From NCBI GenBank assembly GCA_964016885.1, contig OZ024741.1, forward strand, positions 185,876,001 to 185,940,000: a stretch of 64,000 nucleotides of DNA, read 5' to 3'. Positions within the stretch are counted from its first letter, which is position 1, and each line of letters begins with the position of its first letter. Positions 5,480-55,250 of the stretch are shown here, piece by piece. Position numbers and translations under genes: made by a program. The notes under the pieces are model-generated. The model saw only the letters and a program-made list of their open reading frames with translations. It had not been told where the DNA came from and made no database searches. This stretch comes from Eledone cirrhosa. Its lineage: Eukaryota.

Positions 5480-5517
5480 ACACACACACACATACACACA
5501 CACACACATATATATAT
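5378..5517. repeat. (CA)n/(TA)n microsatellite
   Basis: Direct reading. Confidence 0.95.
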
Positions 5518-6147: not shown

Positions 6148-6197
<50 letters not shown>

Positions 6198-6199
<2 letters not shown>

Positions 6200-6309
6200 A
6201 ACCAGTAAGACCCCGACGGCTGAGCTCAAGCCGTTTCGACGGCTAATTCTGGACTAAATGAAAATTTATCCTGGTATATAAATAGCCGATCTTCTCAAGG
6301 GGTAATTCC
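6198..6309 (-). ncRNA. Type I hammerhead ribozyme, U3-A8 core variant
   Basis: Minus strand: GGAATT-ACCCC [TTGAGAA] GATCGGCTA..TAGCCGTC [GAA] ACGGCT-TGAGCTC-AGCCGT [C] GGGGT-CTTACT-GGTTCC. Stems I, II and III all pair; GUC cleavage triplet. Confidence 0.8.
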
Positions 6310-6676
6310 ATATATGGTCAAAGTGATTGTCACAAGGATTGGTCACAAGTTAGTAGTAATTCTGTGATGGCAAATTAGTGGGGGAGAGGGTGGCTAAACC
6401 TGCCAGTAGGAGAAAAAGGGGAGGGGGTGGAGTAGACCCAATCATGCGTTGGTAGTGCCGGCTACAGCTGGGCAAGAGGTCAAAGAAGATACTAGGGAGA
6501 GGGAGGGAGAGGAAGTCGAAACGGTAAGTAGAACAATGGAGGGTAAAAATATATATATATGAAAAAATAAAATACTGAGAGTGATAAAAGCGAATAAATG
6601 TAAAGAAAAAATATAAGCAATTTCTACGACCTAAGTCTCTAGCTATTGCTAGGCTAGATAAATAAATAAATAAATA

Positions 6677-6708
<32 letters not shown>

Positions 6709-7931
6709 AATAAAAAATAAGTAGGGTAGACTAGGGCTATAACACCCCACTTGCCGATTTTGTAATGGGTAACCCCTGCTTGCCAAGGCAGACGTAAGAC
6801 CTTTTTATTCTTTTATCGCTTCTATATTTCCATCTTCCCCCCATCCCTCTCTAGTCCTTCTGCCCCAGTTCTCTTTCTTTGTCGGCGTATTTTTCTCGCC
6901 CACCCGAGGCAGCCCTTTGGCCCCTTGTAGCCTTAGTACCCCCACCCTCTCCCCTAGTCTATGATAGATTTGGCGGACTCTGCTTTTTATAGCAGTTGTG
7001 TTAGACCTCGGATACTTGCCCCCTTATCCGACCGCTCCCCCTTTTTTCCGTGCCTTCTATATTTCTTAGTGGCACCTCTGCCTTAATTTCTCGTTTCAGT
7101 ATTTCTTTCTTCTCTTTTCTTTTGGGCGGGGTGGATTCTGAATTTATTTTTCCGTATTCTACTTTTATCTCGTACGAACTTTCATGTAGCTTGTTTAAGA
7201 ACTTTTGTAGCGTGGCGGTACCATTAGAGTTAGCATCAGTATATTTTTTCGGAACTCAGAATTATTTCTCGTACTAGTTTACTTTTCTGCACTGGGTGGT
7301 TGCTGGCCTTGTACCCGGGGTAGAAACCTTTATTAATTATTTCGTGGTAGTTTCTTTAGTATTTGGCCCCCATTGTTGACCCGTCACCGTATAATATACG
7401 TACTTATACCTCTTAAAAGGGTCCTTTCCTATTCCGTCCCACCTAGGTTATTTACTTATTTTTTTATTACTTTATTTCTTTATTTCTTTATTTCTTTATT
7501 TCTTTATTTCTTTATTTCTTTATTTCTTTATTTCTTTATTTCTTTCTTTATTTCTTTATTTATTTATTTATTTATTTATTTATCTAGCCTAGCATTAGCT
7601 AGAGACTTGGGTCGTAGAAATTGCTTATATTTTTTTCTTTACATTTATTCGCTTTTTATCACTCTCAGTATTTTTTTTTTCATATATATATATTTTTACC
7701 CTTCATTGTTCTACTTACCGTTTCGACTTCCTCCTCCTCCTCCTCCCTAGTATCTTCTTTGACCTCTTGCCCAGCTGTAGCCGGCACTACCAACGCATGA
7801 TTGGGTCTACTCCAACCCTCCACTTTTTCTCCTACTGGCAGGTTTAGCCACCCTCTCCCCCACTAATTTGCCATCACAGAATTACTACTAACTTGTGACC
7901 AATCCTTGTGACAATCACTTTGACCATATAT

Positions 7932-8043
7932 GGAATTACCCCTTGAGAATCTCGGCTATTTATATACCAGGATAAATTTTCATTTAGTCCAGAATTAGCC
8001 GTCGAAACGGCTTGAGCTCAGCCGTCGGAGTCTTACTGGTTCC
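7932..8043 (+). ncRNA. Type I hammerhead ribozyme, U3-A8 variant, second copy with disrupted stem II base
   Basis: Same as 6198-6309 but TC replaces GA at the start of stem II and GGAGT replaces GGGGT in stem I. Confidence 0.65.
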
Positions 8044-8249
8044 TATTACCCACTCTACTACCCTAAGTATTGAGTACTTTGGTGCGTTATGGTCCACCTG
8101 GTTCCTTACCACATTTCCTTCGTTATATATATATATATACTTAACAAAAAAATGTGGGAAGAAACCGGGTGGGCCATAACGCACCAGAGTACTCGATACT
8201 TAGGGTAGTAGAGTGAGTAATAGGAAAAGTGTCACGTCCTGACTCTTTT

Positions 8250-8502: not shown

Positions 8503-8582
<80 letters not shown>

Positions 8583-8588
<6 letters not shown>

Positions 8589-9132
8589 AAAGAATAGAGG
8601 TGTAACACACGAGTCATGATATATTGGTAAAAGGAAAAGAAAATGGTGACAAATTGTTCCCAGTGAAAAATAGTTTAATTAGGAATAAGTAAAAATTAGT
8701 AATAGTATTGGTTAGTATTCAGTTTTGGTTTTAAGTTTTACCGGTTGCGCATTTCTAATGCTTTTCAAAAATAATTTTGAGATAGAGCGCCCGTGATGTT
8801 TGCTCTAATCTGATTAGTTTTGGAAATTCTACCTGCTTTATGTAAAAAAAGTGGCTCCAGATGTATGAAAAAATTCTTGTGGTCAAAACAATTTTGATTG
8901 GTCGGTAGAGGTCATGTGAATGTTAAAAATTGATTTTGCGCCAAATGTAGTTTGTCTCGGCTGATTGAGAAGTCACTGAAAAATAAGTCTTTCAAGACAA
9001 ATATGTGTGTGTGTGTAGTAGTAGTAGTAAAGAGGTTCGTTGTTGTGTTAATGGTCAGCAGGGATGTGTGTGCGAACCGCAGCCTGCTGACAGTTCAAAT
9101 GCCTATTAAAACAAGTGTGTGTGTGTGTGTGT

Positions 9133-9178
<46 letters not shown>

Positions 9179-11936
9179 CAGAGTAATTCGTGGTAGAGGG
9201 ATCGGACAGTAGGAATGTGTCTGTACGTGTGTGGGGGATATTTTAACATGTTAAAAGATATTTTTCAGCTCTTGTCTTATACGGAGAAGTGTGTGCGTGT
9301 GTGTGTATATGTCTCTTTGTATGTTAATGTACGTGTGTGTATGTGTGTGTGTGTATACATGTGTGTGTGTGTGTGTGAGAATGTGTGTGTGTGTGTGGGT
9401 GGACCAGTATGTTTGTGATACTGGTAAAAATGGTGTACATTATTCGATATTTTCAGTAAAAACAATTGAACACATCACAGACTTCCCTTACCAACACTTG
9501 CACGGACAAAAACACAAGCCAAACCTCAACAAGGAACAATGGAAAGAATTATATATATTAAAAACCAACAGAACCATTACAATTAAAGAGGCTGATAAAG
9601 GGAGTACATATATCCTAATGGAGACAGAATTCTATATCAACTTAGCGCTCTCCACTTTGCAAAACGAAACATACTACGAAAAGGCTGAACACTACAATCA
9701 ACAGAAAATTATGAGAGCCCTAAAATCTCTGGTCAACCAATACAAAGAAGGACTCACTAACAAGGAATTCAGCTTCATCACAGACTTCACAAGTAAATCC
9801 AGCCTTTTCTACGGTATCCCTAAAGTACATAAAAACGAATTAATAAGTAAGGCATGCAAGGAAGCCACAGACATAGTCATCAATGTCCCCTCACCCAATG
9901 ATCTCAAATTAAAACCTATAATAGCAGGCCCCGCTTACGAAACCCACCGCCTTAGCAACTTCATAGATACCCTTCTCAAGCCTTTTCTCAAACACATCAA
10001 AATCTATATAAGGGACGACCTAGATATGCTCAATCACCTCCCTAATATGCCCCTTTCTGATCAAACCCTACTAGTGACGTTCGATGTATTGTACCTATAC
10101 TCCAACGTCCCCCACAACCTAGGAATAGAAGCTATCCAATTCTGGCTGGATAATTACCACAATGAACTCCCACAACGCATCAAAAAAGAATTCGTGATAG
10201 CGGGACTCAAATTTATCTTGGAGAACAATTACTTCGTTTTCAATAACAAACCCTACAGGCAGAAATCTGGGACCGCTATGGGAACGAAAACAGCCCCACT
10301 TATGCCAACCTAGTCATGGGGTACCTGGAAATCACCCTCTACACTAAAGTACTAAACAAATTTGGAAACACTCTCCACTTACACATAGAAAGGAACTGGA
10401 AGCGATATCTAGATGACTGCTTCACCCTTAGGCACGAAAACATCGAGAAACTTAAAGAATTTCAAACCCTTATAAATGGGCTCAACACGAATATTAACTT
10501 CACGATGGAATACAGCCATCAACAACTCCCCTTTCTCAACATCCTCATTAAGATTCATAACCAAAAAATAGAAACAGACATATACTACAAACCCACAGAC
10601 TCCAAGCAATATCTTCCTTTCAACTCTTGCCACCCTAAAAACGTTAAAATTAATATTCCCTACAACTTAGCCAAGAGAATATGTACTATAGTCTCCAATA
10701 AAAACACCCGTTACTTACGGCTACAATAACTAAAGGACACACTCATAGGCAGGGACTACCCTGCATCACTAATTGACAATGGAATCCAACGTGCCCTAAA
10801 ACTCAGTACCCAGGACCTTAGACACCCTAAAGTAAATCAACCGTAACTAAAAGCTCTTCCATACATCTCCACACACAACCCCCTCAACAATGAGGCCTTT
10901 GACACAATCCTCCAGATAATCCCTGTGTTAAAAAGGACCATAGAATGAACCAAATCCTACGAACACACGATATCATAAATAGCAAAAGACGATCTAAGTC
11001 AATGAAAAACATCCTAACACATGCCAAAGTACTGCCAACCACAACAACGAAACCCACAGTAAAAAAATGCGATAGACCCAACTGTGGCAAATGCATCAAC
11101 CTAATAGAGGGTTCGGAATTCTGTTCTAAAGAATGACAACGTTTTATAGTAAAACACAATTTCACATGCGCATCAGAACATCTAATATATGTATTAACTT
11201 GCTCAGGTTGTCGAGAACAATACATAGGCCAGACCAAAAACAGCCTCCGCCAACGCATAACTGTCCATAGATCCCAAATTAAAATACAGGAATACAGGAA
11301 AATACTACTGAGTGAACACATTGATACCTGTGGCGCCCAAAATCATCCCAACTTCAGAATCTTTCCCCTCTACAAATTTAAAGATAATGCCACCCACACC
11401 CAGCGCATCAGCAAGGAATCTCACTTTATTAACAAATACGCACACGTCTAAACACTTCTCCCTAAGACGAACACACAACATACATACGTCAACATACATA
11501 CCTACATCAGCATACATCCTACATACATCTCTATCGACATATAAACACAATGACATACGTAAACACGCATGTTCTATGGTGCAACACAAATATACACAAA
11601 TTTGCATACCTTTTGATGTCTATAGATATGAACGTGCCGACACACACACATACATATACGCACACATGCATTGCACACTGATGGGCACATACATATGTTT
11701 ACACAAGTATTCCAATACGGCAAGGCCTAATGGATTCCCCTTGCAGTACGTACAATCTGGACACTCACACACACCTTGGTCTTATGCCAATACTATATAT
11801 CATTTCACACCTTTTATTATTAAGGTTTTTGATGTTCTATTGAGAGAATCGTTTTTACTGAAAATATCGAATAATGTACACCATTTTTACCAGTATCACA
11901 TAAATACTGGTTCACCCACACACACACACACATTCT

Positions 11937-11968
<32 letters not shown>

Positions 11969-12640
11969 CACACACACATACACACACGTACATTAACATA
12001 CAAAGAGACATATACACACACACGCACACACTTCTCCGTATAAGACAAGAGCTGAAAAATATCTTTTAACATGTTAAAATATCCCCCACACACGTACAGA
12101 CACATTCCTACTGTCCGATCCCTCTACCACGAATTACTCTGCTACACACACACACACACTTGTCTTAATAGGCATTTGAACTGTCAACAGGCTGCGGTTC
12201 GCACACACATCCCTGCTGACCATTATCACAACAACGAACCTCTTTACTACTACTACTACACACACACATATCTGTCTCTTGAAAGACTTATTTTTCAGTG
12301 ACTTCTCAATCAGCCGAGACAAACCTACATTTGGCGCAAAATCAATTTTTAACATTCACATGACCTCTACCGACCAATCAAAATTGTTTTGACCACAAGA
12401 ATTTTTTCATACATCTGGAGCCACTTTTTTTACATAAAACAGGTAGAATTTCCAAAACTAATCAGATTAGAGGAAACATCACGGGCGCTCTATCTCAAAA
12501 TTATTTTTGAAAAGCATTAGAAATGAGCAACCGGTAAAACTTAAAACCAAAACTGAATACTAACCAATACTATTACTAATTTTTACTTATTCCTAATTAA
12601 ACTATTTTTCACTGGGAACAATTTGTCAGCATTTTCTTTT

Positions 12641-12642
<2 letters not shown>
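8583..12642 (+). mobile_element. Penelope-like element (Neptune-like), 5'-truncated copy with inverted pseudo-LTR
   Basis: About 8640-9465 is the reverse complement of ~11850-12640; the internal RT/GIY-YIG region is closely similar to 51467-53470; (TA)n flanks. Confidence 0.92.
9466..11465 (+). pseudogene. PLE reverse transcriptase / GIY-YIG endonuclease, disrupted
   Basis: KEADKG, FYGIPKVHK, LVTFDV..LYSN, GTAMGT, RYLDDCF, YYKPTDS, CDRPNCGKC, LIYVLTCSGCREQYIGQT; several stops and frameshifts. Confidence 0.92.
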
Positions 12643-12694
<52 letters not shown>

Positions 12695-13135
12695 TTATAT
12701 ATATATGTATGTGTGTGTATGTGTGTGTAAAAAGAGAGAGAGAGAGACGAGAGAGGGACAGATAGAGAAGGAGAGATGAGAAACTACTGATATTTGATTC
12801 TACCGATATCCACCCACAATGCAATAGTTAATCCGGGGAGGGGCATATATAAGACACTTGCCCAATGATCGACGCAGCGTGTTTGAACCAAGAAGCAGCG
12901 GGTTGCAAATTATTCTTCTATGCCACTTATTTCTCTTTTTAGTTATATATATATGGGGGGGGGGAGTGTGTGTGTCTATGTATTTGTGTGTGTGTCTCTA
13001 CGTGCATGTGTATCTGAGTGTATGTATGTGTGTGTGTGTGTGTATGTGTGTGTATGTGTGTGCGTATGATAAATATTAGTTACGGTATAAGTTTATGTAT
13101 ATAACACGAAAGCCAATAAATGAAATAACCTGATG

Positions 13136-15460: not shown

Positions 15461-15513
<53 letters not shown>

Positions 15514-15561
15514 GGCGTAAAATAAGAAAATTATAACAATTAACTTACTTACTAAAATTTC

Positions 15562-15643
15562 ACTCCAACTAATTAGTTTCTGAAAGGGAATAAACATAGT
15601 TTCCGAAGAAATGTACGGAGAAGCCTTTCATCATCAGGGAAGT
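15562..15643 (-). ncRNA. Type I hammerhead ribozyme (family B, best copy)
   Basis: Minus strand ACTTCC-CTGATGA-TGAAAGG..CCTTTCA-GAA-ACTAATTAGT-T-GGAGT; 7-bp stem II, palindromic stem III, GUU triplet. Confidence 0.8.
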
Positions 15644-16091
15644 CTATTCTCAGCTAAGTTTCCAGGCAATGCGCGGACACAGGGAACTTATACAAAAATA
15701 ATTCAGTGGATGGAAAAAAGCAAAGCGTGGACTAAGTTCCAAGCCATTGAAAAAATCACTGCCTACTGCCTCGGTAGCAAATTCAAAAGAATCAATCACG
15801 TGACATCGAGGTTAATCAGTGAGGAGTGGTTTGTTAAGAAGACAGCAGCCGAACCGTTACTATGAACTATAGTAGCAGTTTTTGCCAATTTTGGCTCAAC
15901 AAAATAATTTGGAGATAATTATAAAGAATTAGTATATCTACTAACATATATATACAGATGCATACCTATGCCAGCAAATATATAGGTTTTGTCTTAGTAA
16001 CTTTGTGGTTCAATGCATGGGGATGCAGAACAATAATATGAAAGACGTAAAATAAGAAAATTATAAAAATTAACTTACTTACTAAAATTTC

Positions 16092-16173
16092 ACTCCAACT
16101 AATTAGTTTCTGAAAGGTAATAAACATAGTTCCCGAAGAAACGTACGGAGAAGCCTTTCGTCATCAGGGAAGT
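16092..16173 (-). ncRNA. Type I hammerhead ribozyme (family B, copy 2)
   Basis: As above with a C.A mismatch at the stem II closing pair; exactly 530 nt from copy 1. Confidence 0.72.
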
Positions 16174-16769
16174 CTATTCTCAGCTAAGTTTCCAGGCAAT
16201 GCGTGGACACAGGGAACTTATACAAAAATAATTCAGTGGATGGAAAAAAGCAAAGCGTGGACTAAGTTCCAAGCCATTGAAAAAATCACTGCCTACTGCG
16301 TCGGTGGCAAATTCAAAAGAATCAATCACGTGACATCGAGGTTAATCAGTGAGGTTTCTTATTTTACGTCTTTAATATTATTGTTCTGCATCCCCATGCA
16401 TTGAACCACAAAGTTACTAAGACAAAACCTATATATTTGCTGGCATAGGTATGCATCTGTATATATATGTTAGTAGATATACTAATTCTTTATAAATATC
16501 TCCAAATTATTTTGTTGAGCCAAAATTGGCCAAAACTGCTACTATAGTTCATAGTAACGGTTCGGCTGCTGTCTTCTTAACAAACCACTCCTCACTGATT
16601 AACCTCGATGTCACGTGATTGATTCTTTTGAATTTGCCACCGACGCAGTAGGCAGTGATTTTTTCAATGGCTTGGAACTTAGTCCACGCTTTGCTTTTTT
16701 CCATCCACTGAATTATTTTTGTATAAGTTCCCTGTGTCCACGAATTGCCTGGAAACTTAGCTGAGATAG

Positions 16770-16851
16770 ACTTCCCTGATGACGAAAGGCTTCTCCGTAC
16801 GTTTCTTCGGAAACTATGTTTATTCCCTTTCAGAAACTAATTAGTTGGAGT
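16770..16851 (+). ncRNA. Type I hammerhead ribozyme (family B, inverted copy 3)
   Basis: ACTTCC-CTGATGA-CGAAAGG..CCTTTCA-GAAACTAATTAGTT-GGAGT. Confidence 0.72.
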
Positions 16852-17014
16852 GAAATTTTAGTAAGTTAATTTTTATAATTTTCTTATTTTACGTCTTTCA
16901 TATTATTGTTCTGCATCCCCATGCATTGAACCACAAAGTTACTAAGACAAAACCTATATATTTGCTGGCATAGGTATGCATCAGTATATATATATGTTAG
17001 TAGATATACTAATT

Positions 17015-17120
<106 letters not shown>

Positions 17121-18029: not shown

Positions 18030-20360
18030 GATGATGTGGACCGACATCCTAAAGCCAAGCAGACGCACTGCAAACAACTTCCAGGCGTCCAACAATGGCA
18101 TGCCATGCTTGTATGGGCTCCGCAAAGACCACAAGACAGTCGACGACCCGACAACAGGACCACCAACAAGACCTGTATGCGGAGCAAATATAGCTAGCAA
18201 CTACAGGATCTCCTAATTCCTGGTTATACGCCCCATAATCAAGATGTCCCCAGATGTATGTGACAGTACAGAGGACCTCCTCAGCAGAACCAGTGAGTGC
18301 AACATAAACAGGAACCTATCCAACTGCATAATAGGCAGTATGGATGTGGTATCACTGTACCCATCCATTAACATTGATTTTGCTGTGGGAAAATATTTGG
18401 AGATGATCATTGAGAGTGAGGTGGAGTTCTGCGACGTCGACACAGACGAACTGGGCCTCCTCTTTAGACTTACCTAAGACATTGCCTACCTAGACAGCCT
18501 TGACAGTAGACCCATAAGAGGTAGACCCCCAACCATAAACTAAATGGCAAAAAAGACTCCCATTGGAAGGTGGATTGGGTGGACCAAAGCTATACGGACC
18601 CCCCAAAACAATGATCAGGTAAGAAAAATGGTCGCACATGCAATAGGGGCTAGTATGAAAACTACCCTAAAGCGCCACATATTCAAGTTCAACAAGAAGA
18701 TCTACACCCAAAATGAGGGAGCAGCCATTGGCGTCAGCATAGATGATGACGTTGCCAACCTTTTTATAGTATGGTGGGAAAGGAGTCTCAGAGATCTCCT
18801 TGATGAGAACTCCATAGACCTCATCATGTACTCTCGCTACGTAGACGACATCAATATAGTAAAAAGGACATCCCCACAAGAGAGCACTAACAAGTTTGAT
18901 TTAGAACGTAGCACAATGGAAAGCATCCAGCAGATGGTTAATTCCATACACCAGAGTATAACTGTAACTATCGATTACCCTTCCAAACACCCTAACAATA
19001 GATTACCTGTATTAGACACGGAACTCTGGATTAATGCTATAGACGAGAGAGCCCAAATTCTCCACTCACACTATGCTAAACCCCTGGCCTCCAAATACCT
19101 GATACTCAAAAACTCAGCAATGTCCAGTAGTGCTAAGTTTAATATTCTGATCGCAGACTTGGTACGAGTGATGAAGAACGTGTCCCGCATGTGCGACCCA
19201 ACAGAAATGGAAAGACACATCCAATACTTCATCAACCGCATGCAGTTCTCTGGCTACAACCAAAGAGACAGAATCCGAGTATACGAAGGAGCTACGGAGA
19301 AGTATAAGACCCTCATAGAACTGGACATGAAAGGAATTTGCCCATTATACAGGAGCAAATCATTGAATAGTTTAGATAAGACTAGACATAAGATAGGGAA
19401 AGCCACTTCATGGTACGACAACAAGAGATTCCATAGTGTCATGGATGTGGACGCTACCCCTGGAGGGAAATTAGCTAATCAGTGTAGAAAGGGCCTGAGA
19501 AAGACCCACTTAAAGGTTAAGGTGGTAGAAAAGCCAGGAACCACTATAAAAGGCCTGATAAGCTAAACCTACCCTTTTAAGAAAACCCACTGTACTAATA
19601 GGAAATGTATCATATGTAGAGTAAACCCCCGGATAAACTGTAAAACTAGAAACGTAGTCTATAGCATATGATGTACAGAGGTTACTACAACATGACAACA
19701 ACATACATAGGCGAGACAGCTCGTAGCATAGGTGAGAGGTTAGACCAACACTGGGGGGGGGGCATAAAAGGACGAACAAACGGTTCAGTACTATACGAAG
19801 ATGCCAGACAACAACATGACGGTAACATAGACAACATAGAAATTAGAATAATATCTAAACATATAAATGACCCAGCAGATAGGCAAATCAGAGAGACCAG
19901 CGAAATAGATCTTAGAAGGTCAAGGCTAAACAGAAAAAATGAATGGAATAACAACACCCAAACAAACAACACTGTCCTAAGAGAAGTATAAATAAATAAA
20001 TAAATAAATAAATACATACACAAGCACAATAACAACAAACACACATAAACACACACTAGTAAACTAAGATAGAATACAATAACAAATACACAGTCACTCA
20101 AACACGAACACACATTAAACAAAACACTATACACACACGCAAACGCATGCGCAGAGAAGACAAAATATAAATAAATAAATAAATAAACTAAATAAAGATG
20201 GCATACAGTACAACGGGAGGAAACATAATAGCACCACTGACGATGTTGCAGATGTGCAACGAAAGAACTTTCTTAGACTACATATATGTGTTTGTGTCTA
20301 TATTGTATTTGTATTTTTGACCGTTGGTCAGTCAATGGCAACATTGAGGACCGAATAAAT
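18030..20360 (+). mobile_element. Second Penelope-like family, 5'-truncated and degenerate (RT plus GIY-YIG)
   Basis: [95 protein letters not shown]. Confidence 0.9.
20237..20275 (+). ncRNA. Hammerhead-like motif in 3' region of the second PLE
   Basis: CTGACGA-T-GTTGCA-GATG-TGCAAC-GAAA with perfect 6-bp stem II; stem I not convincingly paired. Confidence 0.5.
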
Positions 20361-21590: not shown

Positions 21591-23124
21591 TTGAACGAAA
21601 ATCGAGATTTATTACAAGATTAATACAAATATTTCCAAAATCTGGTACTGTTTGAGAAACCTATTACAACTACATTTAGATTTTGTTGTATGAAATGCAC
21701 GAAATAGCATATTTTCAAAAGAATTTGGACGATGTATATGGTATTTTTTATTAACAAATATTCAAGGGAAATAGAGGATAAAATATATATTCACATATTG
21801 TCAACAAACGGGAAAAGTTCCTTGCGGTGTTATTTCCAACGCTTTGAGTTCAAATCATACCAAGGTCAAATACAACGTTCATCATTTTGGGATAAATAAA
21901 ACAAAGGTGGCAATTAATAGATCATCGGACGAAATAGCATCAAGTAATTTTTCTGAATATTTACTTTGTAATTTCCTTTATAGTAAGCCGGTTTAATACA
22001 TCAACTGGATTAACACCATCACCTAGTAATTTAGTGCAATAGTCGATGCCACACTGTTGTAAACATTAAGGTCAAGTCTTCGGCATGTAGAGAGATTCAT
22101 TCCCCCATCATACAACCAAACTTTATAGAAACATGTCTACCCATACACACATATCAAATATATATATATATATATGTACATGTATATATACATATGTCTC
22201 GGGTGCTCTAAAAAAAATAAAAGGACATGGACTCGGTCCTTGTGTTTTAATTAAATGTTTAAATTAGCCATATTTTGTTCATGAAGAATCCTCGTATACC
22301 CTCAAACTGTCGAATCCGGTAGAGAGAGCTTATCAAGCCGTCTCTATATATATGGCCCCCAAAGAAGCTTCTTGTACTACTAGAAGTTCGAAAACAAGAA
22401 ATTTATAAAAGATATGGGATGTTTTATCAATATATCTGATATATATATATATTATGTATATGTTCTGTAAGATTCTTGATGAGAAATCGTGTGATGAAAC
22501 CGATATTATTATATTTGGGGATGGTCATATTGACAATATTGCCAATAGAAAGACACACACGCACCATATACTGTTCACTTTATTGTTCGTTATACGTCCA
22601 TTTCTTCGTTTGTCAAAGTTCTATCATCACACATTATGTGACCTCCTCATTTTCCTGGTCATAATATATCTTATAGTAGTAGTAGTAGTAGTAGTAGTAG
22701 TTACTAGAGCAAAGCGTTTTAGTTTACTAGTTTGTCTAAGGTTTTATTCGACCATAGATTTACAGATTAAATGATAATAAAAAAGAACCAGGAAGAAAGA
22801 AGTTAATACAGAATATATTTTCACACTTGTTTTAAATATGTTTTAATTACAAAAATAACAGGTGTATCGGAAAAGTATATCAAGGAAAAAATGTCAATGT
22901 ATAGAAAAAAAATCGATGCATAAAACTATAATGAAGATACTTTCTAAACATAGAATATAAGAAAAGTTAGAAAAAAATGTATATTCTAATTACTATATTT
23001 AAATTTAGAAACTATTTCCAATGTGTTGGATTGACATAATGTTCTCTTCAGTTAATTTTCTCTAGTCATTTATGACACACTTTCACACACACACATACAC
23101 GTGTGTATATCCATTATACATACA

Positions 23125-38645: not shown

Positions 38646-38998
38646 ATACAATAAATGTAACCTGAGTTTTTCGAATATTAATCATAACATTCGATTCGTT
38701 TGCAATTATGCAAACAAGCCTCAATTTTATAGCCATGTCAGTAGAAATAGCCTATATCTAGGATATAGCATATATTTTCACTAGCTCTGACAGTTTGGCA
38801 GGTGAATAGTGAGCTGTACTGATGATAGGTGATACCCAGAAACATTAGTGTCTGCAGTTCTGTTCACATGCCAACATAAGAGCAAGAATGAAGGGGACAT
38901 TCCACTGACATGGCTATAAAATTGAGGCTTGTTTGCATAATTGCAAACGAATCGAATGTTATTATTAATTTTCGAAAAACTCAGATTAATTTATTATA
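38646..38998 (+). mobile_element. Non-coding element, family D: ~100-bp inverted repeats enclosing a hammerhead ribozyme
   Basis: 38646-38746 is the reverse complement of 38900-38998. Confidence 0.85.
38795..38874 (+). ncRNA. Type I hammerhead ribozyme, canonical core, extended bulged stem I
   Basis: TTGGCA-G-GTGAATAG-TG-AGCTGTA [CTGATGA] TAGGT-GAT-ACCCA [GAA] ACA-TTAG-TGT [C] TGCAGTT-CTGTTCAC-A-TGCCAA; predicted cut after C38852. Confidence 0.85.
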
Positions 38999-39026
38999 TA
39001 TATATGTGTAATTTATTATATATATA

Positions 39027-39339: not shown

Positions 39340-39579
39340 CACCAGGCGCATGCGTGTATTTGCGAAATTTTGTCAACGTGTCATTAGTTATTATGTGAGG
39401 AAGCAGAGCATTAGTGTAATTAACTAATGACATGAAATCTATCTTACATTGCCAATTTAAATATGAATTCTCTCCAACACAAGAGTAGAGATTTACTTTC
39501 TATTCAAAATTGTTGTACTTATTTTTAATTAAATAATATATATACATATGTATATAATTATATATATATATAATATATA

Positions 39580-39623
<44 letters not shown>

Positions 39624-39630
<7 letters not shown>

Positions 39631-40170
39631 TTGGTGCTCTGAAATAGCGATATATATATGAATGTATATATAGTGTATTTTGCAATACACTGTATGCTTA
39701 ATTAAAAGCATTTTGAAGACCTTACGCTATTGTTTTAGAGTAGTGACTGTCTCACTTACTTTAAATTTTCACCAATAGCGTAAGGTCTTCAAAATGCTTT
39801 TAATTAAGCATACAGTGTATTGCAAAATACACTGTATATACATTCATATATATATCGCTATTTCAGAGCACCAATTCTAATTTTTAATTACTGCTTGACC
39901 GGCAACCGCTCTGTATAATCAGTTCCTGATTATTACTAGAATTCTATAAGAATCAAACATTCATGATTTTCGGCAAACAGGTGGAGTACTTGGCTTTGAT
40001 AAGTACCAAATAGTACGAAACAGAACTTTGTCAGCTTTATCTCCCCCTGTTTGCTGAAAATTTAAATTAAGTGAGACTGTCACTACTCTAAAACAATAGC
40101 ATAAGGTCTTCAAAATGCTTTTAATTAAGCATACAGTGTATTGCAAAATACACCTTATATACATTCATCT
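39624..40170 (+). mobile_element. Non-coding element, family E: inverted arm plus ~321-bp unit with direct terminal repeat and HHR
   Basis: 39624-39770 is inverted relative to the rest; 39773-39848 repeats at 40094-40168. Confidence 0.85.
39966..40061 (+). ncRNA. Type I hammerhead ribozyme, U3-A8 core variant, long stem I with internal loop
   Basis: ATTTTCGGCAAACAGGTGGAG-TACTT-GGCT [TTGATAA] GTAC-CAAATA-GTAC [GAA] ACAG-AACT-TTGT [C] AGCT-TTAT-CTCCCCCTGTTTGCTGAAAAT; predicted cut after C40032. Confidence 0.85.
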
Positions 40171-40187
40171 ATCTCACTCTCTGTCTC

Positions 40188-40296
<109 letters not shown>

Positions 40297-41109
40297 ATAT
40301 ATGTGTGTGTATGTACGCATGTATTCATGTATATGTATATTTTAACACCATTTTTCATTATACTGTTGTTTTCCTGTTACTAATCTTCCTCATTTGTGTG
40401 GTTAATGTGTGTATATAGTTAAAGGAACGTCAATATAAATATATAAATGTAGTTTACTCGAACTTTACCTACAACACCAAAGCATGTTATTTACTAAAAC
40501 ATATATCTTATGCATATTAGTGCATATACATATATGTGAGTGCGTGTAGGTATGTATGTATGGATGTTTGAAAGTACGTATCTCATTATGTCTTCAATAT
40601 TTTTTCTATTATATCATATTTTATTGCATATCATATGATATTGTATTACTCTTGTCTACTTCTAGGTTTTTTTATCCGTTATTGTCGCTATATTCAATAA
40701 TTATACGATATTATCCTTACGGAGTCGATAAAATCAAGTACCAGTAATACACTGGGTAAGTGCTGGACTTGTGCCAAAAGTAGAAACAATTATTTTTAAG
40801 TTCTTGTAATTTCGTTATCATCAACATTATATTTTCATGTTTATTTATTCATTTATTATAAGGAAACATGTCTGGTCGCCCTTTGCTACATGCTTTTTAC
40901 CCTAGCTTCTCTCCTTGACGGAACTGCAGTCATGGGTCCAGCAAAGGCCGAAAGGGAGCACTTGGACACTGGAATATCTTCAGGCGCTCATAACCCTCAT
41001 CCAATCGGGACTAACGATTAGTGGAAACTCAACCTTGTTGTTATATAGAGGGTTAGTGGAGGGTAAGAGTGCCGACGACCTTGGCTGACTCTAGGCGTCA
41101 ATGAAAATA

Positions 41110-51275: not shown

Positions 51276-51466
51276 TATACATATATATATTCACTACATA
51301 TATACATATATATATATACATATATACATACACATACATGCACATATATTTTTTTGTATTGCACCATAGAGCATGTGTGTTTACGTGTGTCATTGTGTTT
51401 ATATGTGGGTAGAGATGTGTGCTGATGTAGGTATGTATGTTGACGTGTGTATGTTGTGGGTTCGTC

Positions 51467-53790
51467 TTAGGGAGAAGTGTTTAGACGGGGTCCGTATTTG
51501 TTAATGAAGTAAGATTCCTTGCTGATGCGCTGGGTGTGGGTGGCATTATCTTTAAATTTGTAGAGGGGAAAGATTCTGAAGTTGGGATGATTTTGGGCGG
51601 CGCAGGTATCAATGTGTTCACTCAGTGGTATTTTCCTGTATTCCCGTATTTTAATTTGGGATCTATGGACAGTCATGCGTTGGCGGAGGCTGTTTTGGTC
51701 TGGCCTATGTATTGTTCTCGACAACCTGAACAAGTTAATACATATATTAAATTTTCCGATGCACATGTGAAATTGTGTTTTACTATAAAACGTTGTCCAT
51801 CTTTGAAATAGAATTCCGAACCCTCTATTAGGTTGATGCAAATGCCACAGTTGGGTCTATCGCATTTTTTTACTGTGGGTTTCGTTGTTGTGGTTGGCAG
51901 TACTTTGGCATGTGTTAAGATGTTTTTCATTGACTTGGATTGTCTTTTGCTCTTTATGATATCGTGTGTTCGTAGAATTTGGTTCATTCTATGGTCCTTT
52001 TTCAATACAGGGATGTTCTGGAGGATGGTGTCAAAGGCCTCGTTGTTGAGGGGGTTGTGTGTGGAGATGTATGGAAGAGCTTTTAGTTTTGGTTGATTTA
52101 CTTTAGGGTGTCTAAGGTCCTGGGTACTGAGTTTTAGGGCACGTTGGATTCCATTGTCAATTAGTGATGCAGGGTAGTCCCTGCCTATGAGTGTGTCCTT
52201 TAGTTCTTGTAGCCGTAAGTAGCAGATGTTTTTATTGGAGACTATAGTACAGATTCTCTTGGCTAAGTTGTAGGGAATATTAATTTTAACGTGTCTAGGG
52301 TGGCAAGAGTTGAAGGGGAGGTATTGCTTGGAGTCTGTGGGCTTGTAGTATATGTCGGTTTCTATTTTTTTGTTATGGATCTTAATGAGGATGTCGAGGA
52401 AGGGGAGTTGTTGATGGCTGTATTCCATCGTGAAGTTAATATTTGTGTTGAGCCCATTTATAAGGGTGTGAAATTCTTTAAGTTTTTCGATGTTTTCGTG
52501 CCAAAGGATGAAGCAGTCATCAAGATATCGCTTCCAGTTCCTTTCAATGTGTAAGTGGAGGGTGTTTCCAAATTTGTTTAGGACTTTAGTGTAGAGGGTG
52601 ATTTCCAGGTATCCCATGACTAGGTTGGCATACGTAGGGGCTGTTTTCGTTCCCATAGCGGTCCTAGATTTCTGCCTGTAGGGTTTGTTATTGAAAACGA
52701 AGTAATTGTTCTCCAAGATAAATTTGAGTCCCTCTATCACGAATTCTTTTTTGATGCGTTGTGGGAGTTCATTGTGGAAGTTATCCAGCCAGAATTGGAT
52801 AGCTTCTATTCCTAGGTTGTGGGGGATGTTGGAGTATAGGTTGACTACATCGAACGTCACTAGTAGGGTTTGTTCAGAAAGTGGCATATTAGGGAGGTGA
52901 TTGAGCATATCTAGGTCGTCCCTTATATAGCTTTTGATGTGCTTGAGGAAGGGTTTGAGAAGGGTATCAATGAAGTTGCTAAGACGGTGCGTTTCGCAAG
53001 CGGGGCCTGCTATTATAGGTCTTAATTTGAGATCATTGGGTGAGGGGACATTGATGACTATGTCTGTGGCTTCCTTGCATGCCTTACTCATTGATTCGCT
53101 TTTATGTACTTTAGGGATACCGTAGAAAAGGCTGGATTTACTTGTGAAGTCTGTGATGAAGCTGAATTCCTTGTTAGTGAGTCCTTCTTTGTATTGGTTG
53201 ATTAGAGTTTTTAGGTTTCTCATAATTTTCTGTTGATTGTAGTGTTCAGCCTTTTCGTAGTATGTTTCGTTTTCCAAAGTGGAGAGCGCTAAGTTGATAT
53301 AGAATTCTGTCTCCATTAGGACTACTGTACTCCCTTTATCAGCCTCTTTAATTGTAATGGTTCTGTCGGTTTTTAATCTATTTAATTCTTCCCATTCTTT
53401 CTTGTTGAGGTTTGGCTTGTGTTTTTGTCTGTGCAAGTGTTGGTAAGGGAAGTTTGTGATGTGTTCACAGAATTCGTCCAGGATTTTATTTCTACCTTTT
53501 GAAGGGGTGTAATTGCTTCTATTTCTGGCTAATGATTCATCCTCATTGTACTGGTCGAATAGTTGTTCACTAAGTCGTAACTTTCTACAGAAGTCTGTGA
53601 TGTCTTCCTTCATTTCATAGTAGTTAGGACGTAGTGGGGTCGGTGTGAATTTAAGACCTTTGGAGAGTAAGTTGATAAGGTTGGGTGTTGGTTCTGCACT
53701 AGTAAGATTGATAATTTTTATTACTATCGGTTTCTCCTCCCTGTCTTGTGTTATTTTGTTTGCCTGTATCTGTGTGCTGTGTCTAAAAAA
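51467..53790 (-). CDS. PLE RT plus GIY-YIG endonuclease. Frame open from 53790, first Met 53613; one 1-nt deletion near 51695.
   Basis: IINLT..LLSKGLKFTPTP, KEADKG, LRPII, TFDVVNLYSNI, AMGT..APTYANL, RYLDD, LPFLD, CDRPNCGIC, LIYVLTCSGCREQYIGQT; C-terminus (LRQRMTVH..SEHIDTC..KE..LN) lies in the shifted frame. Confidence 0.92.
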
Positions 53791-55061
53791 TGGTTGGGGT
53801 AGAGGGGTTGTCTGCTGATGTTAAGTGGTCTCCTGTGTTTGTTATATTCCTTGTTGTTGTAAAATGTGGTTCGGGTTGGTGGTTGTAGATTGAATGGGGT
53901 GTTCCTGTACTGCGAGTATGGGTGTGTGTTTCTATGTGCCATGTTGTATTGTGGTGTTATAAGTGGCCTACGTTGTTGGTTGTATCGTGTGGTGTGGGTT
54001 TGTTGTGTATTGTGGAAGTGAGAGTTGAGAAAATGGTAATTACCTTGCTGTCCCCTTGAGGCGGGGAAGTTGTTGCATCTATCATGGCGGTGGTATCTTT
54101 TCCCTATGTTTGACGATGAGGAATCCGCGTAGTAGTTGAGTGATTTGGTATGGTGTCTCCTTGAAGGGGGAAAGTTGTAAATGTCATTCTGGGGGAGATG
54201 ATTTCTTGGGTTTTTGTTCCTTCTTATGGTAGCGAGGTTGGGAAGTTCATCTTCGGTGTGGTGCTTCCTTCTTCGTTTGTTTGAGGCTTGGGGGTTTGAG
54301 AAGTTGTTGTGCGGTTCAGTTATGGGTTTTCCTATTTTTATGAACGGGTTATTGGAGGTGTAATCCGTTTGAAAAGTCGATTCATAGTGTAGGAACCAAG
54401 CGGCACTTTTTTCCCAGCGTTGAAGGGATTTCAGTTCTTCTCTGTTGCAGTCCCCTTTCCATAATTTGGAGATCTTCTCTACCTTGGGGCCTTCAGTTTT
54501 GTTGTTGATTTCCAGGAGGATCTCTTCATCGATGGTTTTGATTTTTTCCTCATTTGTCTGGGCCCTCAGTTTAAGAAGTTCAATTTCTGTCTTCATTTTT
54601 TCCAATGCCATTCTTTCCCTAAGGTGTCTTTGAGGTTCGGGTTCATTTGGAATGGACTTTATTTGTAGTTTACGGGGGAGAGTTAGAGGGGTTGAGTTAA
54701 GCCATTTTTCATATATCTCTGCTTTGTTGTGATTTTGTATCATCTTCCAGAATGAGAACTTTCTGTCTCTGAGGGATTTGTTCCATTTTGGAATTGTTCG
54801 AATTTTCATTTTGTGTGAATCAATCTCACATGGTTCTTCGTTGGTTTTTCCTGGGTTGGTAGTAGTGAACATAGTTTGGATAGTATCGCAAAGGTTTTGG
54901 AGTTTGTCGCCGATTTCGGAGGGTTTGTATCCGGTGGCGGTTTCCTTATTTGTGGAGTCAAGTTTGTCGACCAGCAAAGATAGGTTGGTGTTGATTTTCT
55001 TGAGTTCCTGTAGGATCTCTTCATTTGAGTTGATGAGGGTTGTATCCGTTTTTGTTGGCAT
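53751..55061 (-). CDS. PLE upstream ORF (436 aa from first ATG): predicted coiled-coil N-half, low-complexity basic N/Q/H/R-rich C-half
   Basis: Uninterrupted ORF between the pseudo-LTR and RT; heptad-like EEILQELKKINTNLSLLVDKL and MALEKMKTEIELLKLRAQTNEEKIKTIDEEI; basic KRRRKHH. Confidence 0.8.
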   Translation of the reverse strand: MPTKTDTTLINSNEEILQELKKINTNLSLLVDKLDSTNKETATGYKPSEIGDKLQNLCDTIQTMFTTTNPGKTNEEPCEIDSHKMKIRTIPKWNKSLRDRKFSFWKMIQNHNKAEIYEKWLNSTPLTLPRKLQIKSIPNEPEPQRHLRERMALEKMKTEIELLKLRAQTNEEKIKTIDEEILLEINNKTEGPKVEKISKLWKGDCNREELKSLQRWEKSAAWFLHYESTFQTDYTSNNPFIKIGKPITEPHNNFSNPQASNKRRRKHHTEDELPNLATIRRNKNPRNHLPQNDIYNFPPSRRHHTKSLNYYADSSSSNIGKRYHRHDRCNNFPASRGQQGNYHFLNSHFHNTQQTHTTRYNQQRRPLITPQYNMAHRNTHPYSQYRNTPFNLQPPTRTTFYNNKEYNKHRRPLNISRQPLYPNHFLDTAHRYRQTK

Positions 55062-55250
55062 TTTCTGTATCTCGTGTGAGGATATGATAGTTAAAAGAAT
55101 AGAGGTGTAACACACAAGTTATTATATATTGGTAAATGGAATAGAAAATGCTGACAAATTGTTCACAGTTGAAAAATGGTTTAATTAGGAATAAAAGAGT
55201 ATTAGTGATTGTATGGGTTAGTATTCAGTTGTGGTTTTAAGTTTTTAAGT

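What the first reader, a model, noticed from the sequence alone, without database searches (positions are those of the whole stretch)
39624..40170. Independent U3-A8 hammerhead in a ~321-nt unit (family E)
Sequence unrelated to family A, yet it again has a UUGANAA core. It has a perfect GTAC/GTAC stem II, 4-bp stem III, GUC, and a 21-position distal stem I beyond an internal loop. The unit is terminally redundant (period 321) with an inverted arm. With family A and the PLE pseudo-LTR, three families in one window use this normally uncommon variant, suggesting it is enriched in this lineage.
Basis: partly seen in the sequence, partly recalled or inferred. Interest (0 to 1): 0.8.

Follow-up and report, generated by a model that had tools for sequence, protein, structure and literature searches.

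The report
Hammerhead retrozyme with Penelope-style insertion
A 321-base repeat with many copies in this animal genome carries a hammerhead-shaped motif predicted to cut its own RNA; it is likely a protein-free passenger of Penelope-type jumping genes, a known kind of element, and its unusual U-A core pair is already published.

Summary
Observation confirmed. A type I hammerhead lies at 39966-40061 (+): U3-A8 core, 4-bp helices II and III, GUC at 40030-40032, 21-position distal stem. It sits in 1.25 units of a 321-bp, 33% GC repeat. An inverted truncated copy precedes it, a 30-34-bp tail is on one end only, and both flanks are (TA)n: the anatomy of Penelope-like-element (PLE) insertions, shared by an autonomous PLE in this window. 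About 4,000 contigs per run map to one unit; diverged ones bridge every junction tested, so the period is native. U3-A8 is the majority in this subfamily, but loose ends reveal a sister with the usual C3. This copy is decayed and has one hammerhead, so it cannot release a circle alone. U3-A8 is published (Perreault 2011; about 1,300 motifs in Schistosoma PLEs, 2014). The window tally (3 U-A of 6 families) does not show lineage enrichment. Non-LTR retrozymes and their PLE dependence are in print; the PLE insertion signature on one was not found in my searches. The scan noted U3-A8 PLE hammerheads in other genomes, nothing on this sequence. Cleavage and circles untested.

The parts
39536..39623 (.). 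(TA)n microsatellite, left target flank
39624..39775 (-). Inverted, 5'-truncated copy of the element's 3' end; starts within the 3' strand of the distal stem, has no hammerhead core, carries the tail and joins (TA)n
   Evidence: 108 of 109 identical to 39773-39881; 115 of 122 to 40051-40172
39773..39881 (+). Upstream partial unit (pseudo-LTR-like): 79-bp repeat plus tail
39852..39881 (+). 30-34-bp tail behind an internal (AT) tract; present on the inverted arm, absent at the right end; other copies end here in (TA)n
   Evidence: loose ends at 39881 in 40, 45 and 50 contigs of X1, X2, X3 and at 39855 in 18 contigs of X1
39773..40093 (+). One 321-bp unit, 33% G+C, no long reading frame
39966..39986 (+). 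Distal stem I, 5' strand (pairs with 40041-40061)
   Evidence: pair probabilities 0.59-1.0
39987..39995 (+). Internal-loop TAC and 5' strand of proximal helix I (39992-39995 pair with 40033-40036)
39996..40002 (+). Catalytic core box UUGAUAA, U3-A8 variant
   Evidence: kept in related copies
40003..40016 (+). Helix II with loop CAAAUA, aligned to loop 2 of Rfam HH9
40017..40032 (+). GAAA box, helix III, GUC triplet; predicted cleavage after 40032
   Evidence: majority letters at 40025 and 40028 make 40020-40031 a perfect palindrome
40033..40061 (+). 3' strands of proximal helix I and distal stem I
40094..40172 (+). Downstream copy of the 79-bp repeat, ends without the tail
40168..40302 (.). 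CT-rich then (TA)n microsatellite, right flank; no target-site duplication can be discerned

Best explanation
This is one slightly decayed copy of a high-copy, non-coding 321-bp repeat with a U3-A8 type I hammerhead motif, likely a non-LTR retrozyme that Penelope-like-element (PLE) enzymes copied into a (TA)n tract. Shown: hammerhead anatomy, native 321-bp period, many diverged copies, and the PLE insertion pattern. Inferred cycle: tandem source loci are transcribed; successive hammerheads cut after C17 to free a unit-length RNA, probably as dimers through the palindromic helix III; a host ligase closes it; a PLE reverse transcriptase/GIY-YIG endonuclease primes in (TA)n near the internal AT tract and copies more than one turn, leaving a partial tandem, an inverted truncated copy and a tail on one end. 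This locus has one hammerhead and would be a dead-end insertion. U3-A8 is a subfamily trait, probably a tolerated double transition from C3-G8.
For: Anatomy and chance control. Family: 4163, 3963, 4421 and 65 contigs laid on one unit, from 99+ to under 90% alike (X1-X3 are one sample). Of 32 listed pieces, 6 bridge the tail-to-next-unit junction 39881/2 at 84-93% identity, 9 bridge 39965, 11 the cleavage site, 7 bridge 40061; the share of laid contigs that run on into unlike sequence is 0 in X1-X3. Majority letters turn two G-U pairs of this copy into Watson-Crick pairs (39972, 40028; 96-99%) and a third in about half (39992); 40025 plus 40028 make helix III a perfect palindrome; loop-2 positions 40010 and 40011 vary. 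Loose ends at 39971 (X2, 6 contigs) and 40075 (X4, 1 contig) give a sister whose two distal-stem strands pair over 13+3 positions by inspection, with a G-C to A-U change and a compensated 2-bp insertion, a 6-bp helix I strand complementary to 40033-40038, and a core starting CUGAU. PLE signature: inverted copy, partial tandem, 30-40-bp tail at one end, (TA)n bias are described in PMC8557442 (passages). The autonomous PLE insertion at 8514-12728 and the C3-G8 family at 15506-17026 show the same polarity, longer end on the inverted copy. PLE ORF 51676-53820(-): RVT_1 29 bits, E 1e-6 (cut-off 29.6), DKG, CxxC and GIY-YIG-like words. U3-A8 active in vitro and seen in nature: PMC3088659 (passage).
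Against: No cleavage or RNA data. This copy prefers an alternative fold in which the core strand pairs with the helix III strand, and helix I has only 4 pairs plus two U-U in the laid subfamily. No listed variant in 13 core positions is weak evidence alone (P about 0.13), and two C>T rows and one T>C row were not shown, so C40032 and, in X2 and X4, T39996 are not cleared. 40023 G>T (13-20%) breaks a helix III pair; the main X4 variant has G10.1-U11.1. Only contigs 80% or more alike were laid, which selects for this subfamily. No contig spans a whole unit, so tandem dimers with two hammerheads were not seen. No sequence similarity between E and any PLE in the window, so the partner is not identified. 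The two sister strands come from different runs. In a 2026 preprint 8 of 9 tested Xenopus retrozyme dimers did not cleave.
Confidence: 0.72

Rival explanations
1. The pieces are 5'-truncated 3' ends of a longer autonomous PLE stacked in tandem and inverted; the 321 period is where one copy happened to be cut short, and there is no small circle.
For: PLE insertions are built of truncated tandem and inverted copies; the right end and the inverted arm are truncated pieces; 595 loose-end rows were not shown.
Against: 6 of 32 listed pieces, 84-93% identical and from 3 runs, cross the junction 39881/2 with 31 or more letters on each side; contigs that run on into unlike sequence make up 0 of those laid in X1-X3; the hammerhead is full-size, not the minimal type of metazoan PLE repeats.
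Confidence: 0.1
2. The element is a real PLE passenger but the U3-A8 subfamily no longer cleaves; it spread as uncut transcripts or from a sister with a C3-G8 core, and the hammerhead shape is a relic.
For: Helix I is weakened to 4 pairs plus two U-U where the sister has a 6-bp strand; alternative fold preferred in this copy; Naiad PLEs spread without hammerheads; 8 of 9 tested Xenopus dimers did not cleave.
Against: Both core positions changed together and keep the pair; majority letters restore pairing and the helix III palindrome; U3-A8 hammerheads are active in vitro.
Confidence: 0.12
3. A DNA-level foldback or satellite repeat whose inverted arm arose by hairpin-driven rearrangement, with no retrotransposition.
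For: Long inverted arms with a 40-bp spacer; the inverted arm and upstream copy differ at only 1 of 109 sites, as conversion would give.
Against: Fixed 3' ends that join (TA)n in many contigs; the same asymmetry in an RT-coding PLE in this window; compensatory changes in the RNA stem of the sister subfamily.
Confidence: 0.06

Closest known systems
Metazoan non-LTR retrozymes (Cervera and De la Pena 2020, PMC7229834; Li, Clavereau and Pollet 2026, bioRxiv 10.64898/2026.07.22.740005)
   Same: Unit of about 300 bp, low G+C, non-coding, full-size type I hammerhead, thousands of copies, co-existing PLEs; described in coral, mussel and axolotl, where they give circular RNAs.
   Different: U3-A8 core; 4-bp palindromic helix III and 21-position distal stem; this locus is 1.25 units with one hammerhead rather than a tandem array; it shows the inverted copy and one-sided tail of PLE insertions, which word searches of both main texts did not find discussed (supplements not seen).
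Minimal hammerheads of PLE pseudo-LTRs, including the U3-A8 variant of Schistosoma Cercyon (Cervera and De la Pena 2014, PMC4209133)
   Same: U3-A8 core; palindromic helix III region fit for dimers; PLE-type setting; pieces on opposite strands 100-700 bp apart are mentioned there.
   Different: E has canonical helix II with a six-base loop, a full helix III and no extra base after A9; no RT gene between the repeats.
Rfam Hammerhead_HH9 (RF02275) and the canonical Schistosoma-type architecture
   Same: Loop 2 and the internal-loop bases of stem I align to the HH9 consensus.
   Different: 19.8 bits against a gathering score of 52; U3-A8; shorter proximal helix I; multi-copy mobile repeat, not a single intronic motif.
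Non-autonomous PLEs without hammerheads (Chlamys derivatives such as MRC1, PMC8557442)
   Same: Short passengers that form pseudo-LTRs and tandem insertions (passage).
   Different: Those resemble their autonomous partners at the 3' end; no such partner was found for E in the window, and E carries a hammerhead.

Membership tests
Type I hammerhead ribozyme | Core boxes 3-9 and 12-15.1 with a Watson-Crick 3-8 pair | tested here: met
   UUGAUAA and GAAA; U3-A8; variant accepted in PMC3088659
Type I hammerhead ribozyme | Three helices around the core, helix I open | tested here: met
   4+4+4 pairs; helix III weak in this copy (probability 0.02)
Type I hammerhead ribozyme | NUH cleavage triplet | tested here: met
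   GUC 40030-40032
Type I hammerhead ribozyme | Loop 2 / stem I tertiary contact | tested here: inconclusive
   Sequence motifs align to HH9; the contact itself cannot be tested
Type I hammerhead ribozyme | Self-cleavage | not testable with these tools
   No assay
Rfam Hammerhead_HH9 (RF02275) | Score at or above 52 bits | tested here: not met
   19.8 bits; not filed under HH9
Non-LTR retrozyme | 150-450-bp low-GC unit with a type I hammerhead | tested here: met
   321 bp, 33% G+C; native period
Non-LTR retrozyme | No protein coding | tested here: met
   Longest stop-free stretch 67 codons (minus strand), 41 or fewer in the other five frames
Non-LTR retrozyme | Many genomic copies | tested here: met
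   About 4,000 contigs per run of mixed identity on one unit
Non-LTR retrozyme, 'active' locus as defined by Li et al. 2026 | Two consecutive units with complete hammerheads | tested here: not met
   One hammerhead at this locus; it is a monomer-type copy. Not filed as an active locus
Non-LTR retrozyme | Tandem dimers or multimers elsewhere in the genome | tested here: inconclusive
   All junctions bridged, but no contig spans a whole unit; no genome held
Non-LTR retrozyme | Expression as linear and circular monomer RNA | not testable with these tools
   No RNA data could be laid
PLE-type insertion | Partial tandem, adjacent inverted 5'-truncated copy, 30-40-bp tail at one end, microsatellite target | tested here: met
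   against PMC8557442
Autonomous PLE | RT plus GIY-YIG ORF | tested here: not met
   None in the element; not filed as autonomous
Non-autonomous PLE derivative | Homology to the pseudo-LTR or 3' end of an autonomous PLE | tested here: inconclusive
   No BLAST hit within the window; rest of the genome not searchable

The most novel reading that the evidence does not exclude
A canonical-hammerhead retrozyme family whose insertions carry the full PLE signature (inverted truncated copy, one-sided tail, (TA)n target), which is direct structural evidence that PLE enzymes copy small ribozyme circles by more than one turn; and whose C3-G8 and U3-A8 sister subfamilies form a natural experiment on compensatory switching of a ribozyme's catalytic core, repeated in several unrelated families of this AT-rich lineage.
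Probability: 0.4. Interest if true: 0.55.

Novelty: new member of a known kind. Interest (0 to 1): 0.33.

Why it matters
Retrozyme mobilisation by PLEs rests in print on shared hammerheads, co-occurrence and pseudo-LTR homology. An insertion with the PLE-specific inverted copy and one-sided tail adds a different, mechanistic line of evidence, and a 321-nt template would be a small substrate for the PLE retrotransposition assay that PMC8557442 calls the next task. Sister subfamilies with C3 and U3-A8 cores allow a direct kinetic comparison in one scaffold. The U3-A8 pair itself is not news.

Tried and rejected
No whole genome is held, so no genome-wide U3-A8 count. Run search: no RNA holder listed; nothing is inferred on expression. 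Summed contig depth dips over the hammerhead (about 36-40 thousand against 150-380 thousand just upstream); contig depth cannot rank parts, and both diverged sisters and this copy's clustered private changes could cause the dip, so I did not use it to estimate the U3-A8 share or a copy number. Rfam over the whole window: 167 weak matches, no hammerhead among the 150 listed. Viral contigs: 0 matches. Metagenome contigs: 1 match, L001, only 20 bases alike and inside unrelated coding-like sequence, rejected as chance. Loose-descriptor hits at 22530+, 26292- and 23842- have no family or stem support and fall within the shuffle background. Pfam did not hit the GIY-YIG part of the PLE ORF, nor ORFs 18544-19563, 9255-10310, 53754-55118. 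Earlier scan notes: none by sequence, none for this genome, none relevant for octopus. Papers: no kinetic paper on U3-A8 found; the paper on small PLE hammerheads asked for is not held. Searches for cephalopod hammerheads or retrozymes and for retrozymes with inverted truncated copies found no paper describing this; subscription papers and supplements were not seen.

Full report
Observation. The motif is there as described. On the + strand, TTGATAA (39996-40002) is followed by helix II (40003-06/40013-16, loop CAAATA), GAAA (40017-20), helix III (40020-23/40028-31) and GTC ending at C40032. Proximal helix I has 4 pairs and then two U-U juxtapositions; beyond an internal loop lies a 21-position distal stem with 20 pairs. 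With all helices at least 4 bp, 30 shuffles of the window gave 0 U3-A8 hits and 1 hit of any core; a relaxed scorer gave this site 29 points, and 1 hit in 20 shuffles reached 26. The region folds at z=-6.2. Rfam HH9 aligns over 39979-40054 (19.8 bits, E 0.014, gathering 52), matching loop 2 and the internal-loop bases of stem I: this is the full-size metazoan architecture, not the minimal PLE type. Against activity of this copy: the hammerhead fold is 2.0 kcal/mol above the minimum and helix III has probability 0.02.

Anatomy of the insertion. Between two (TA)n tracts lie an inverted arm (39624-39775), a partial unit (39773-39881) and a run to 40172, with a 79-bp repeat at period 321. The inverted arm starts in the 3' strand of the distal stem and ends with a 30-34-bp tail; the right end lacks that tail. 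PMC8557442 and its preprint (passages read) list these as PLE traits: partial tandems, an adjacent inverted 5'-truncated copy, a 30-40-bp tail at one end, and (TA)n bias. The window gives internal controls. The PLE insertion at 8514-12728, 94% like the PLE at 51353-53467, has the longer end on its inverted copy and the shorter on its main copy, and the C3-G8 hammerhead family at 15506-17026 (period 530) does too. The PLE ORF 51676-53820(-) hits RVT_1 (29 bits, just under the cut-off 29.6) and has DKG, CxxC and GIY-YIG-like words; Pfam did not confirm the nuclease part. E has no similarity to these PLEs and only one hammerhead, so this locus cannot free a unit-length RNA by two cuts.

The family. 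No genome is held. Four runs of unknown kind, one study, two samples, hold the sequence. On one unit (39790-40110) 4163, 3963, 4421 and 65 contigs were laid, spread from 99+ to under 90% alike. Of the 32 pieces listed (12,833 more not shown), 6 bridge the tail-to-next-unit junction at 84-93% identity, 9 bridge 39965, 11 the cleavage site and 7 the end of the stem. So the 321-bp cycle is a family trait, not a chance truncation. Loose ends join (TA)n at 39881 (40, 45, 50 contigs) and at 39855 (18 contigs), the two 3' ends seen at this locus. The window copy has 7 private changes against letters held by 96% or more of the depth in X1-X3 (39834, 39890, 39972, 40011, 40025, 40028, 40067). The majority letters turn G-U pairs at 39972 and 40028 into Watson-Crick pairs and make helix III a perfect 12-base palindrome, as expected for dimer-competent hammerheads (PMC4209133, parts 1-2 of 4 read). 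Counting the change kinds per run shows no A>G at 40001 at 5% or more in any run and no T>C at 39996 in X1 or X3; three rows (two C>T, one T>C) were not shown. None of the 38 listed variant places lies in the 13 core positions, which alone is weak (P about 0.13). Against: 40023 G>T (13-20%) breaks a helix III pair, and only contigs 80% or more alike were laid.

A sister subfamily. Two loose ends (behind 39971, X2, 6 contigs, agreement 0.64; before 40075, X4, 1 contig) give the two strands of a different distal stem. By inspection they pair over 13 positions, one bulge and 3 more, with one G-C to A-U change and a 2-bp insertion matched on both strands. The 5' strand continues into six bases complementary to 40033-40038 and then CUGAU, a C3 core; position 8 is beyond the 30 letters shown. 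That the strands belong to one molecule is inferred. This supports selection on the RNA stem and shows that U3-A8 marks a subfamily, not the whole family.

The enrichment claim. Family A is real and unrelated to E: U3-A8 cores at 6298(-) and 7943(+), long helix II loop, 6-bp helix III. The PLE pseudo-LTR has UUGAAAA in 5 copies but GCAA in place of GAAA in all 5, and scores 22 where shuffles give 0.3 hits per window. The window also holds C3-G8 hammerheads (15637-, 16167-, 16776+; remnant 15084-) and a U3.G8 remnant (27532-). That is 3 U-A of 6 families. Schistosoma has about 1,300 U3-A8 and 2,000 C3-G8 minimal motifs; 3 of 6 is ordinary at that share (P=0.44; motifs and families are not the same unit, so this is rough). 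Perreault 2011 (PMC3088659, passages) reported natural U3-A8 and notes it was already active in vitro. C>T and G>A drift through a U.G intermediate in an AT-rich genome (window 38% G+C) is a plain route to repeated U3-A8; this is inference.

Mechanism. Most likely (0.72): a non-autonomous retrozyme-like element. By analogy with coral, mussel and axolotl retrozymes (PMC7229834, parts 2 and 4 of 6, section 14 and passages read), tandem source loci are transcribed, cut by successive hammerheads and closed by a host ligase; a PLE RT/endonuclease then primes in (TA)n and copies more than one turn. Shown here: structure, period, copy family, insertion pattern. Inferred: cleavage, circles, the PLE partner. 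Rivals: truncated ends of a long PLE (0.10), a non-cleaving U3-A8 subfamily (0.12), a DNA-level foldback (0.06).

Comparison and novelty. It works like a non-LTR retrozyme and meets the size, composition, coding and copy criteria; this locus is not an 'active' retrozyme by the two-hammerhead rule of Li et al. 2026 (10.64898/2026.07.22.740005, parts 1-3 of 5 read), and circles are untested. That preprint argues for PLE origin from co-occurrence and pseudo-LTR homology in Xenopus; its main text has no 'tail' and one 'inverted', in a reference title. PMC7229834 has no 'inverted'. Supplements were not seen. PMC8969392 (passages) only says retrozymes may rely on PLEs. PMC7151607, PMC3884650 and PMC6155905 (passages) added nothing on U3-A8 rates. 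Searches found no report of this family. The host looks like an octopus from recall of its SINE and microsatellite make-up; no call tested this. Earlier scan notes report U3-A8 PLE hammerheads in other genomes, none on this sequence.

Verdict. A real, new family of a known kind. The PLE signature on a full-size-hammerhead repeat and the C3 / U3-A8 sister pair are the parts worth a specialist's look. Interest 0.33.

Noticed in passing
window 15506-17026: A second non-coding hammerhead family with a C3-G8 core: two cores 530 bp apart on the minus strand (15637, 16167) and an inverted copy (16776+) with the longer end; helix III is a perfect 10-base palindrome. With two tandem hammerheads it is a better candidate than E for releasing a unit-length RNA.
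   Followed up: partly
window 8768-, 12507+, 38572-, 50472-, 55284-: PLE pseudo-LTR motif UUGAAAA / 4-5-bp stem / GCAA / CCGG / UA: minimal-hammerhead-like but with C at position 13 in all 5 copies; activity doubtful.
   Followed up: partly
window 6195-6720 and 7520-8046; fragments at 5508, 28150, 38107, 45105: Family A: U3-A8 hammerhead with a 35-nt helix II loop and 6-bp near-palindromic helix III; many truncated and inverted pieces in (TA)n.
   Followed up: partly
3' ends at 39624/39881, 8578, 50271, 17026: The long 3' ends of E, the PLE pseudo-LTR and the 15.5-kb family all finish with an ATTCT word a few bases before (TA)n; could be a shared priming or cleavage signal, or chance in AT-rich DNA.
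   Followed up: no
run X4 on window 39967-40065: In this smaller run of unknown kind one contig (depth 398) dominates the hammerhead region, with 10 other letters and 2 gaps including G10.1-U11.1, unlike the spread seen in X1-X3.
   Followed up: no
window 51353-55118 (-): PLE with a 455-codon upstream ORF overlapping the 715-codon RT ORF in another frame, between 910-bp direct repeats.
   Followed up: partly
window 27532- and 15084-: Decayed minimal hammerheads, one with a U3.G8 wobble core, one with C3-G8.
   Followed up: partly
window 39624-39732 / 39773-39881: The inverted arm and upstream copy differ at 1 of 109 sites while the downstream copy differs from the arm at 7 of 122; may reflect conversion between palindrome arms.
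   Followed up: no
window 14746, 23265, 23451, 36879, 37688, 39025, 40713, 44188, 48946 and others: A dispersed 190-bp SINE-like family in more than ten copies.
   Followed up: no
window 38646-38999: Another 100-bp inverted repeat (94-96%) around a 153-bp spacer, between TA tracts.
   Followed up: no
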